Shown here: positions 49,235 through 52,211 of the stretch, piece after piece
Position numbering within the stretch: the stretch's first letter is position 1
Layout: each line of letters starts with the position of its first letter
DNA from: the human T2T-CHM13v2.0 reference genome, Homo sapiens
Assembly: GCF_009914755.1 (NCBI RefSeq)
Contig: NC_060926.1
Length of the DNA stretch: 64,000 bases
Reading direction: 5' to 3' (one strand)
Made by a program: the position numbers and the translations under genes
The notes under the pieces: generated by a model
Seen by the model: only the letters and a program-made list of their open reading frames with translations
What the model was told of the DNA's origin: nothing
The model's database searches: none

Positions 49235-50900
49235 GAAAAATTCTTCCTCCATTAATTCTCCTCTATACGTCAGTTTGCATGATTTCCATGGCTATGTCTT
49301 TTAAGTTCTCCAATCTTATTTTCTATAGTTGCTAATTTCTACTAATACAATTCAGTGTAATTTTCATTTTAGATATTACATTTTTGTTATTAGAAGTTCC
49401 ATTTGATTCCTTTTTGTATAACTTCTATTACTCTCATTTTATTACCTTTAAATATTGAATATATTGAGCATGTGTGTATGAGCATATAAGCATTTTTAAA
49501 GCATTTGCCTTCTAATTCTGTCACTTCTGTCATGTTTGGATGTTTATATGGACTGATTTTCTTCCATGTTATGGATCACATTTTCCTGTTTCTTGGCATA
49601 TCTAGCAAATTTTTTATTGAATACTGGATATTGTGAATGTTACTGTTGAATATCAGTACTTTGTTAAATTTCCTTAAGGAGGGTTGGGCTTTGTTATTGC
49701 AAACAATTAAGTTACTCCCGGATCAGTGTGAAATTTTAAAGTTTACTGGTATGCACTTTTATGCAGAGATCAGAATTATCTTTTATGTAGAGGCCCAAAA
49801 CTATACTATTAGGTCCAGGACTAATGCTGCTTTAGACCCATGACTAGCCTCTCATTGCTGTCTCTGCTGTATGCTTCAGTTCAGTGGGGCCTTCACCTTC
49901 TTACAGGTTGTAATTTGAACATCCCCACCCCCATCTCTTCATCTGAGTTCTGGCAATTGTGCTTAGCTTCTGTGCCCTCACAATTTGATGGTTTGTTTGT
50001 TTGATTGTTTGTCTGACCTCATGGACTTTTCGCCCTATACATTAATAGCTTAGTATTCAGCCAAAGCCTCAAAAGAATCTCAATGCAAGGTTATTCTTCC
50101 CAAAACTCTTTTTCATTTCCAAACTGCTTCCTAGCAAATTTCAGTTATTTCGTCCCCAAACTCCAGTCGTTGTCTTCTTACCAGTATTGCTATGCTTTGC
50201 CTGGGTTCACCCTTTCTTGCACTGCAGTGTTACAAAGTACTTCTAGGAGATTGCTGGGTTTACACTTCATTTGTTGGTCTTCTCTCATGGATCACTTTCC
50301 TGCACTCCCTGCTGTATGGTATTTAAAAACAGTTGTTTCATTTATTTTGTACAGTATTCTAGATGTTTATGGTTGAGATCAAGTCTGGTACTAGCTACTA
50401 TACTGTGGCCGGTAGTGGCTACCTCAACATTTTTTGAAATATATTTTTGCTGAGTACTGAAGTGTGCATTGGCAGTTTTGTTCTCTTTTGGAATTTTATA
50501 CATTTCATTCTGTTGTCCTCTGGCCTTCATCATTTTTATACGAAGTCAGCCACAATTCTTACTGTTTTTCCCATGAATGTGTCCTTGTTCTCTGGCTGTT
50601 TGTAAGACTTTTTTCTTTAATATTGGCAATCTGACCATTATGTGCCTAGGTATAGTTTTCTTTAAGTTTATCCTGTGTGGGCTGCTGAGCTTCCAGAATC
50701 TGTGGATTGATGCATTTCTTCAGATACAGAAAATTCTCAAGCATTCTCAAGTACAAAATTCTTTAAGTACTGCTTTGTATCATTCTCTTTCTCTCTTCTC
50801 CTTCTGGGACTCCAAATATATCCATTTAAAACCTTTCAACTGTGTTCCACCTATCTCATATGCTCTTTTCCATTCTTAACATCAAAAATAAAATTTTTAG

Positions 50901-51016
50901 TGCTGGACATGGTGGTGCACACCTGTAATCCCAACTACTTGGAAAGCTAAGGTGGAGGATCCTGTGAGCCCAGGAATTTAAGTCCAGCCTGAGCAACATA
51001 GTGAGACTCAAATCTC
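50901..51016 (+). mobile_element. FLAM-type Alu monomer
   Basis: Single left-type arm ending ccagcctgagcaacatagtgagac. Confidence 0.8.
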
Positions 51017-51198
51017 TTTTATCACTCTGTGTGTTTCAGTTTGGGTGCTTTCTACAGACCCATATCTGAGTTCACTAATCTTGAATTCTGCTTTGTTAAG
51101 TCTGTTTTTAAACCCACTCAATACATTTTTAAAAATTCATGTAATGAGCTGTTATTATAGATTTTATATTTTGCTATTCTAGAATACATATTTCATTC

Positions 51199-51570
51199 TT
51201 TTTTTAAAAATCTTGATTTATAATTTAAAGGCTGTGCAGGTCCTGGTTCCTCATTTCTGTTGCTCACAGGCCCGCTGCTCTGGAGTCAGGGTTTTCTGTT
51301 CAAAGGCATGGATACACAAGAGATTTTCAGCTGGGCATGCATTCATCAGCTGGTAACCCTGAAGCAGTGGCTTACCCTTGGCCTTGGTCAACATACCAGG
51401 ACTAAGAAGCTGGATGTGCAACAGCTGAGCTTTACATCTTCTACCTCCATGCCTCTGGGTCCTGTTGCAACTTCCCCTGGTGGCATTCAGTGCTAAGTTC
51501 CATAATGGCAGTCCAGCTTGGGCAGCAGCCCAGTGAGGATTGAACCCCAGCTCAGACCCTGGCCATACTC
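51199..51570 (-). pseudogene. Processed pseudogene (retrocopy) of BOLA2 (BolA-like protein 2)
   Basis: Minus strand from ATG (51503) to TGA (51251) gives MELSTECHQGKLQQDPE/(frameshift)EVEDVKLSCCTSSFLVL/(frameshift)LTKAKGKPLLQGYQLMNACPAENLLCIHAFEQKTLTPEQRACEQQK*. This is colinear with BOLA2 (MELSAEYLREKLQRDLE...IHAFEQKTLTPDQWARERQK). It is intronless, with a short 3'UTR, an A7 tail and a degenerate TSD catatttcattctt (51187-51200) / cacatctgattctt (51571-51584). Confidence 0.93.
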
Positions 51571-52211
51571 CACATCTGATTCTTAATCTCTATTCAAATA
51601 ATTCATCTTTGATACAATTTGTCTATTCTTTCCCCTGTTTTCTTTAACATGTTAATCATAGCTATTTTGAAGTCTTTGCTAACATCAATATCCGGATCAG
51701 CTCATGATCTGCTTCTACTGACTATTTAAACCTTTGATTTTAGGTCAGTTTTCTCCACTTACTAGCACCTTAGAAAATTTTGTTTTGTGTGGCATACATT
51801 GCAGATAAAGTGGTATAGAGAGACTAGATTATCTTATCAGCCCCAGCAGAGTTTTGAGTTTTGTTCTAGCAGACAGTTAAATTATTGATGGATTATCTTG
51901 ATTTTGTCAGGCTTGTTTTTAAACTTTATTACAATGGGTCCACATTAGTTTTGCCCTTACTCTGAAAGGACCTTATACTTAATCCCTGTGTATGACCTCA
52001 TTGATATTTTAACTGAAAGCACAAAGTGCTCATCTGCTCTCTCTGTGGGCCCAATTCTCAATGTCTCTGCTACGTAATTTCTAGAATATTTGCTCAGCAA
52101 TCAGTATGCTAGCAGCTGCTGTCTTCAAAGCCCCCAGAGTGTGCCCTATGCACCTGCAGCTTACAGCTTAGAAATGAGTCAAGGAAAAAGGGGAACTTAA
52201 TGAAGGTTTGG

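What the first reader, a model, noticed from the sequence alone, without database searches (positions are those of the whole stretch)
51187..51584. Hidden BOLA2 processed pseudogene inside an old L1 in an EXOC6B intron
Seen: a GC-rich island of about 370 bp interrupts an antisense L1M. On the minus strand it reads as a complete intronless BOLA2-like CDS (ATG 51503, TGA 51251; 253 bp, two frameshifting deletions of about 7 and 1 nt). It also has about 65 nt of upstream sequence (in-frame LGCCPSWTAI-M), a short 3'UTR, an A7 tail, an 11/14 TSD and a TT/AAGA endonuclease-type site. Knowledge: BOLA2 is the GLRX3-partner Fe-S chaperone duplicated at 16p11.2 in humans; its long form reads LGCRSSWTAA-MELSAEY, as I recall it. 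Inference: this is an old L1-mediated retrocopy, invisible to the ORF track. I do not recall an annotated BOLA2 pseudogene in EXOC6B, so it may be unannotated.
Basis: partly seen in the sequence, partly recalled or inferred. Interest (0 to 1): 0.8.

Follow-up and report, generated by a model that had tools for sequence, protein, structure and literature searches.

The report
Old dead BOLA2 retrocopy in L1
This is an ancient, broken, intronless copy of the BOLA2 messenger RNA that was pasted into an old L1 repeat inside an EXOC6B intron; it is an ordinary processed pseudogene with no sign of function.

Summary
On the minus strand, window 51565-51215 aligns along its whole length with the spliced BOLA2 gene of the same genome. 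That gene has three near-identical copies on contig 16. The alignment crosses both exon junctions without the 77-bp and 283-bp introns. Identity is 267 of 351 aligned bases (76%). A 7-nt and a 1-nt deletion break the frame.

The flanks are L1 ORF1 sequence on the same strand. Two paralogous L1M copies have those flanks next to each other, about 400 bp closer than in the window.

Two hallmarks are weaker than stated. The tail is only A7 preceded by T5. The 11/14 TSD alone is no better than chance: 1082 of 5000 shuffles did as well.

Four other BOLA2 retrocopies exist, on contigs 6, 18, 3 and 11. This one and the contig-11 copy are the oldest (ML terminal branch 0.225 substitutions per site), which I infer to mean roughly 100 Myr.

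The hub's RefSeq table lists no gene here. GENCODE and retrogene tracks could not be checked. Verdict: real, ordinary, low interest.

The parts
51571..51584 (-). 5' copy of the putative target-site duplication (14 nt), preceded by TT at 51586-51585 (a TT/AAGA nick-site-like context)
   Evidence: Sequence. It matches 51200-51187 at 11 of 14. Alone this is not significant: 1082 of 5000 shuffles did as well.
51504..51565 (-). Part derived from the BOLA2 5'UTR (62 nt aligned to the parent). The 5 nt at 51570-51566 between TSD and alignment are unassigned.
   Evidence: alignment; in-frame reading; parent reading.
51251..51503 (-). Disabled BOLA2 coding sequence, 253 bp against 261 bp in the parent. 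Exon 1/2 junction at about 51448|51447; exon 2/3 junction at 51351|51350. A 7-nt deletion lies at 51451|51450 and a 1-nt deletion at 51395|51394. The stop codon is 51253-51251.
   Evidence: Mouse BolA2 structure 1v9j, E 5.7e-11, for the last frame piece. tblastn of pangolin BolA2 P0004 gives three colinear pieces in three frames.
51215..51250 (-). Part derived from the BOLA2 3'UTR, including the poly(A)-signal region, ending where parent homology ends
51199..51214 (-). Degenerate 3' end: four bases (51214-51211) that may be the last bases of the mRNA, then T5 (51210-51206), then an A7 remnant of the poly(A) tail (51205-51199)
   Evidence: Compared with the tails of the four other retrocopies, which begin 4-8 nt beyond the same point.
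51187..51200 (-). 3' copy of the putative target-site duplication; its first two bases overlap the A run
51585..51960 (-). Upstream part of the host L1M fragment (ORF1 region, sense on the minus strand)
   Evidence: It matches dispersed repeats on contigs 7, 8, 9, 12 and 14. L024 aligns to 51958-51615 and L022 to 51715-51578.
50340..51186 (-). Downstream part of the same L1M fragment (ORF1 RNA-binding-domain region), itself interrupted by an Alu-type element at about 50884-51016
   Evidence: Pfam Transposase_22 E 1.8e-4 for 50546-50719 minus; LINE-1 ORF1p structures E 1.4e-3. L022, L024 and L025 align to 51165-51015 and 50558-50431. There are many hits per locus to 50884-51016.

Best explanation
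A mature, spliced BOLA2 mRNA was reverse-transcribed and inserted by the L1 machinery into the ORF1 region of an already resident L1M element. That element lies in an intron of EXOC6B, and the copy has the same orientation as both the L1M and EXOC6B (minus strand).

The copy carried no promoter and has since decayed neutrally. It now differs from the parent at 24% of aligned bases and has two frameshifting deletions. It is a dead processed pseudogene with no function.

Shown: its BOLA2 identity, the absence of introns, the broken frame, the L1 host and the roughly 400-bp insertion relative to paralogous L1M copies.

Inferred: L1-mediated target-primed reverse transcription (from a weak TSD, a short A run and a TT/AAGA site), an age of the order of 100 Myr, and the lack of function.
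For: 1. In the window's own genome the 398-bp query hits 8 of 8 scored candidates: itself, three contig-16 loci and four dispersed copies.

2. A sensitive blastn splits the contig-16 match into three colinear pieces: query 20-134, 137-226 and 235-370. These are separated in contig 16 by a 77-bp and a 283-bp GT-AG intron. In the window the pieces are contiguous.

3. The alignment to the in-silico spliced parent has 267 of 351 identical bases, a 7-nt gap and a 1-nt gap, 63 transitions against 21 transversions, and 23 of 43 CpG-site positions changed. This is the pattern of neutral decay of a methylated copy.

4. Protein level: mouse BolA2 (PDB 1v9j) E 5.7e-11. Whale and pangolin BolA2 are 70-75% identical. 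Pangolin BolA2 aligns in three colinear pieces in three frames.

5. Host: L1 ORF1 domain hits on the minus strand. The flanks are dispersed repeats. In L1M paralogs L022 and L024 the two flanks lie 89 and 48 bp apart, against 489 and 450 bp in the window. That is an insert of 400-402 bp, against 398 bp for retrocopy plus tail plus one TSD.

6. The four other copies have A-rich tails and their own flanking repeats, so BOLA2 mRNA was retrotransposed repeatedly.

7. No regional excess of conservation stands out. Non-CpG mismatch fractions are 0.23, 0.20, 0.26, 0.14 and 0.14 by region. The similarly old contig-11 copy varies as much: 0.10, 0.16, 0.26, 0.23 and 0.16.
Against: The classical insertion hallmarks are weak here. 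The TSD of 11/14 is reached by 1082 of 5000 shuffles. The tail is only A7, and it is preceded by an unexplained T5.

Pfam BolA scores only 16.7 bits, below the 25.7 cutoff, on the longest frame piece.

The two N-terminal protein pieces are individually at background level (E 0.29 each). Their support comes from colinearity and from the DNA alignment.

The paralog alignments around the empty site are noisy.

Lack of transcription or function was not tested.
Confidence: 0.96

Rival explanations
1. The locus is, or for a time was, a functional retrogene or an exapted piece. For example, it might express the C-terminal 47-aa ATG-started ORF (51394-51251 minus), or serve as an EXOC6B exon or regulatory element.
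For: The exon-3-derived part is better preserved: 83% identity, and a non-CpG mismatch fraction of 0.14 against 0.20-0.26 in the other coding parts. One frame is open stop-to-stop for 112 codons. The copy is in the sense orientation within EXOC6B (hub table). A 47-aa protein identical to the ORF sits in the protein database (P0001), listed as the window's own.
Against: Two frameshifts remove the N-terminal half of the domain. The 3'UTR-derived part is just as well preserved (0.14), which points to regional or parental rate differences rather than coding constraint. The longest piece falls below the Pfam cutoff. The hub table lists no exon of any EXOC6B transcript here. Overall K2P is 0.30 with heavy CpG decay.
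Confidence: 0.02
2. The copy did not arise by its own retrotransposition. It would be a DNA-level duplicate of another BOLA2 retrocopy, for instance the similarly old contig-11 copy with which it groups in the tree.
For: In the unrooted ML tree it pairs with the contig-11 copy at 70% bootstrap.
Against: Similarity to the other copies is confined to the mRNA-derived part, query 20-370 of 398. The flanks differ and each copy has its own tail and flanking repeat. The 5' ends differ: parent index 382 here against 409 on contig 11. The two are less alike (71% identity) than either is to the parent (76%). The grouping is what two early offshoots of one backbone show in an unrooted tree.
Confidence: 0.01
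3. The segment derives from another BolA paralog (BOLA1 or BOLA3), or is a chance BolA-like reading.
For: Only a weak Pfam BolA hit.
Against: The DNA-level alignment includes both UTRs of the contig-16 gene. The only other BolA-like locus found with the pangolin BolA2 protein, at contig 1 149.02 Mb (45% identity), did not appear in the DNA search. I take that locus to be BOLA1 from memory.
Confidence: 0.005

Closest known systems
BOLA2P3 (6p22.3) and the other dispersed BOLA2 processed pseudogenes of the human genome
   Same: Same parent mRNA, same intronless structure, same dead state. The copies on contigs 6, 18, 3 and 11 were found in the same searches. The symbol BOLA2P3 is placed at 6p22.3 in a table of PMC8703627 (passage seen), which fits the contig-6 copy at 21.47 Mb. 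BOLA2P2 exists as a symbol (passages seen); its location is not given there.
   Different: This copy is much older: 76% identity to the parent against 85-92% for the contig-6, -18 and -3 copies. Its terminal branch is 0.225 against 0.03-0.13. It starts about 30 nt further 3' in the mRNA than the contig-18 and contig-3 copies, and its tail is nearly gone. It carries no gene symbol in the hub's RefSeq table for the window.
L1-mediated processed pseudogenes in general, e.g. the ribosomal-protein pseudogene RPS15AP13 listed by the hub as the nearest gene
   Same: Spliced mRNA copy, no promoter, A-rich 3' end, flanking duplication at a TT/AAAA-like site, neutral decay.
   Different: Nothing in kind. 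Here the TSD and tail are eroded to the point that they are not significant on their own.
Functional BOLA2/BOLA2B genes at 16p11.2
   Same: Source of the sequence. Three copies in this assembly differ by at most 1 base over 3136 bp.
   Different: The parents have two introns, an intact 86-codon frame and a CpG-rich 5' end. The window copy has none of these.

Membership tests
Processed pseudogene (L1-mediated retrocopy) | Colinear with the spliced mRNA of a multi-exon parent; introns absent | tested here: met
   Three exon pieces are separated by 77-bp and 283-bp GT-AG introns in contig 16 and are contiguous in the window.
Processed pseudogene (L1-mediated retrocopy) | Extends from near the transcription start to the polyadenylation site and not beyond | tested here: met
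   Homology starts at parent index 382. The other copies start at 350, 352, 367 and 409. Homology ends just after the poly(A)-signal region, within 4-8 nt of where the other four copies' tails begin.
Processed pseudogene (L1-mediated retrocopy) | Poly(A) tail at the 3' end | tested here: inconclusive
   Only A7 (51205-51199), preceded by T5. This is plausible erosion at this age but is not diagnostic.
Processed pseudogene (L1-mediated retrocopy) | Target-site duplication flanking the insert | tested here: inconclusive
   The match is 11 of 14, and 1082 of 5000 shuffles reach it. Indirect support: L1M paralogs have the two flanks 400-402 bp closer together.
Processed pseudogene (L1-mediated retrocopy) | L1 endonuclease-type target (TT/AAAA-like) | tested here: met
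   TT|AAGA at 51586-51581, read. The consensus is recalled from established knowledge of L1 endonuclease. A 6-nt AT-rich motif in AT-rich DNA is weak evidence.
Processed pseudogene (L1-mediated retrocopy) | Coding capacity disabled | tested here: met
   The 7-nt and 1-nt deletions shift the frame twice. Each frame piece ends in a stop.
BolA family protein (Pfam PF01722) | Score at or above the Pfam gathering cutoff | tested here: not met
   16.7 bits against a cutoff of 25.7, E 0.0091, profile positions 41-76 only. This is expected for a broken copy. It is a relic of a BolA2 gene, not a BolA protein gene.
BOLA2 (rather than BOLA1 or BOLA3) origin | Nucleotide-level similarity including UTRs to the BOLA2 locus | tested here: met
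   Best solved relative is mouse BolA2 1v9j, E 5.7e-11.
LINE-1 (L1M) host element | L1 ORF1 protein similarity on the same strand, and dispersed repeat copies | tested here: met
   Transposase_22 scores 22.2 bits (cutoff 22.4), E 1.8e-4. LINE-1 ORF1p structures E 1.4e-3 to 4.3e-3. Dispersed matches of both flanks. The subfamily name L1M was not tested because no repeat library is available.

The most novel reading that the evidence does not exclude
This copy and the contig-11 copy are the oldest BOLA2 retrocopies in the human genome, roughly of eutherian-radiation age, and may be missing from gene catalogues. Together with the three younger copies they act as dated fossils of the germline BOLA2 mRNA. 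All 5 of 5 retrocopies begin at least 104 nt downstream of the ATG of the long upstream-extended reading frame, and two start within 2 nt of each other. This would mean that germline BOLA2 transcripts have for about 100 Myr encoded only the short 86-residue protein, and that the long form is not ancestral.
Probability: 0.3. Interest if true: 0.15.

Novelty: new member of a known kind. Interest (0 to 1): 0.07.

Why it matters
It matters little. At most it adds one old processed pseudogene to the BOLA2 family list. It gives a sequence to be aware of when mapping short reads or designing probes for the copy-number-variable 16p11.2 BOLA2 genes, although at 76% identity cross-mapping is unlikely. 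It also offers a small dated sample of the ancestral BOLA2 mRNA, covering the position of its 5' end and the ancestral state of a few codons. Nothing suggests an effect on EXOC6B.

Tried and rejected
1. Pfam on the three frame pieces: only the last gave a sub-threshold BolA hit; the two N-terminal pieces gave nothing.

2. TSD significance: the shuffle test shows 11/14 is not beyond chance when offsets are free. I therefore rest the insertion on the paralog spacing, not on the TSD.

3. Base-by-base reconstruction of the empty site from L1M paralogs L022 and L024: the alignments are noisy and only roughly show continuity.

4. Search for selective constraint by region: the lower mismatch fraction in the exon-3 part (13 of 90 non-CpG sites) is matched by the 3'UTR part (5 of 36). 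The contig-11 copy shows comparable scatter. I rejected this as evidence of function.

5. Literature: searches for BOLA2P1-P4 and 'BOLA2 pseudogene', BOLA2P, BOLA2 with retrocop* and BOLA2 with 'processed pseudogene'. They returned 3, 5, 2 and 0 papers. I saw only search listings and single passages of four of them. None mentions a chromosome-2 or EXOC6B copy. Supplementary tables were not opened.

7. Presence in other mammals: none of the collections on hand holds mammalian genomes other than the window's own, so this was not tested.

Full report
**What is there.** On the minus strand, window 51187-51584 is a G+C-richer island. GC is 0.42-0.56 in 100-bp windows over 51200-51599, against 0.23-0.35 on both sides. 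Translation in the three minus-strand frames gives three successive pieces:
- An ATG-started piece from 51503.
- A middle piece.
- A C-terminal piece ending in TGA at 51253-51251.

Only the last piece is long enough to score. It gives Pfam BolA at 16.7 bits, below the 25.7 cutoff. It also matches the solved mouse BolA2 structure 1v9j at E 5.7e-11, and whale and pangolin BolA2 proteins at 70-75% identity. A tblastn of pangolin BolA2 (P0004) against the window places residues 1-18, 21-39 and 42-87 colinearly in three different frames at 51503-51254. The two short pieces score E 0.29 each, no better than the background hits elsewhere in the window, so the protein evidence alone would be thin.

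**The decisive test.** The window's own genome could be searched. The 398-bp segment hit eight places:
- Itself.
- Three loci on contig 16 (29.74, 30.48 and 30.58 Mb), matching at 83% over query 235-370 only.
- Four dispersed full-length matches on contigs 6, 18, 3 and 11, at 69-74%.

A more sensitive blastn split each contig-16 match into three colinear pieces: query 20-134, 137-226 and 235-370. Reading the contig-16 locus shows that these pieces are exons bounded by GT...AG. The introns are 77 and 283 bp. The three contig-16 loci differ by at most one base in 3136.

I spliced the exons in a script and aligned them to the window. The alignment is a single colinear block over 51565-51215, with 267 matches, 84 mismatches and 8 gap columns. 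It runs straight across both exon junctions, at about 51448|51447 and at 51351|51350.

**The host and the insertion.** Downstream on the same strand, 50546-50719 hits the L1 ORF1 RNA-binding domain. Pfam Transposase_22 gives E 1.8e-4 at 22.2 bits, against a cutoff of 22.4. Solved LINE-1 ORF1p chains give E 1.4e-3. Both flanks of the island match dispersed repeats on many contigs.

In two of these paralogous copies the sequences matching the two flanks lie close together:
- L022: 89 bp apart, against 489 bp in the window.
- L024: 48 bp apart, against 450 bp in the window.

The window therefore carries about 400-402 extra bases. That agrees with retrocopy plus tail plus one copy of the duplication (398 bp). 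The fine alignments at the empty site are noisy.

The direct hallmarks are eroded. The tail is A7 preceded by an unexplained T5. The 14-nt flanking repeat matches at 11 of 14, which 1082 of 5000 shuffles of the flanks also reach when offsets are free. TT|AAGA precedes the insert. So L1-mediated target-primed reverse transcription is an inference from the class of element, supported but not proven by these marks. An Alu-type element also interrupts the same L1 at about 50884-51016.

**Age and family.** Identities to the parent are 91%, 92%, 85%, 76% and 76% for the contig-6, -18, -3, -2 (this window) and -11 copies. An ML tree gives terminal branches of 0.053, 0.032, 0.129, 0.225 and 0.239 substitutions per site. 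Its internal support is weak, at 43-70%.

Transitions outnumber transversions 63 to 21, and 23 of 43 CpG-site positions are changed. Without CpG sites the K2P distance to the parent is 0.24. Using textbook mammalian neutral rates (recalled, not computed here), a branch of about 0.18-0.22 corresponds to the order of 100 Myr, with wide error on 351 sites. The host L1M must be older. Pairwise identities of 62-77% among its paralogs are compatible with this.

The four other copies each have an A-rich tail. For three of them (contigs 6, 18 and 3) I could also see a matching flanking repeat by eye; I did not look for one at the contig-11 copy and tested none of them. They are therefore separate insertion events.

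**Function.** The frame is broken twice. Decay is CpG-driven and similar in coding and UTR parts. The hub table lists no EXOC6B exon here. I found nothing to suggest function. Expression was not testable.

**Novelty.** Processed pseudogenes are among the commonest features of the genome. The hub's RefSeq table lists none in this window. The literature library holds the symbols BOLA2P2 and BOLA2P3, the latter at 6p22.3, which fits the contig-6 copy. It holds nothing on a chromosome-2 copy. GENCODE, HGNC and retrogene tracks could not be consulted, so 'unannotated' remains open. Even if true, it is a catalogue addition.

**A small side observation.** All five retrocopies begin at parent index 350-409, at least 104 nt downstream of the long-form ATG at index 246. 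Two begin within 2 nt of each other. This suggests that the retrotransposed germline mRNAs encoded only the short protein.

Noticed in passing
L002 (contig 6, 21.47 Mb), L003 (contig 18, 0.99 Mb), L004 (contig 3, 47.52 Mb), L008 (contig 11, 73.64 Mb): Four further BOLA2 processed pseudogenes in the same genome, each with an A-rich tail; for three of them (contigs 6, 18, 3) a matching flanking repeat is visible by eye. Identities to the parent are 91%, 92%, 85% and 76%. The contig-6 copy fits BOLA2P3 at 6p22.3 (PMC8703627 table).
   Followed up: partly
L005, L006, L007 (contig 16: 30.58, 30.48, 29.74 Mb): Three copies of the parent BOLA2 gene region differ by 0-1 bases over 3136 bp. This is the recent 16p11.2 segmental duplication.
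   Followed up: partly
L007:2095-2355 minus, compared with the 5' ends of all retrocopies: The upstream frame is open back to an ATG 198 nt before the short-form ATG. All 5 of 5 retrocopies start at least 104 nt downstream of that ATG, and two start within 2 nt of each other. This suggests the germline transcription start lies inside the 'long-form' frame.
   Followed up: partly
window 50884-51016: An Alu-type (monomer-sized) element interrupts the same L1M fragment. It gives several hits per locus in unrelated loci.
   Followed up: no
Alignment, codon in the C-terminal TP(D/E)Q motif: 4 of 5 retrocopies, and the whale and pangolin proteins, carry GAG/E where the present human parent has GAC/D. 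The parent therefore changed after the youngest retrocopies were made.
   Followed up: no
window 51394-51251 minus (P0001): The 47-aa ATG-started remnant ORF of the pseudogene is present as a predicted protein in the large protein database (2 members on 2 contigs). It is an example of a pseudogene fragment called as a protein.
   Followed up: no
contig 1, 149.02 Mb (L020): A BolA-like locus 45% identical to pangolin BolA2 over residues 8-83 with an open frame. It is presumably BOLA1 (name recalled, not tested).
   Followed up: no
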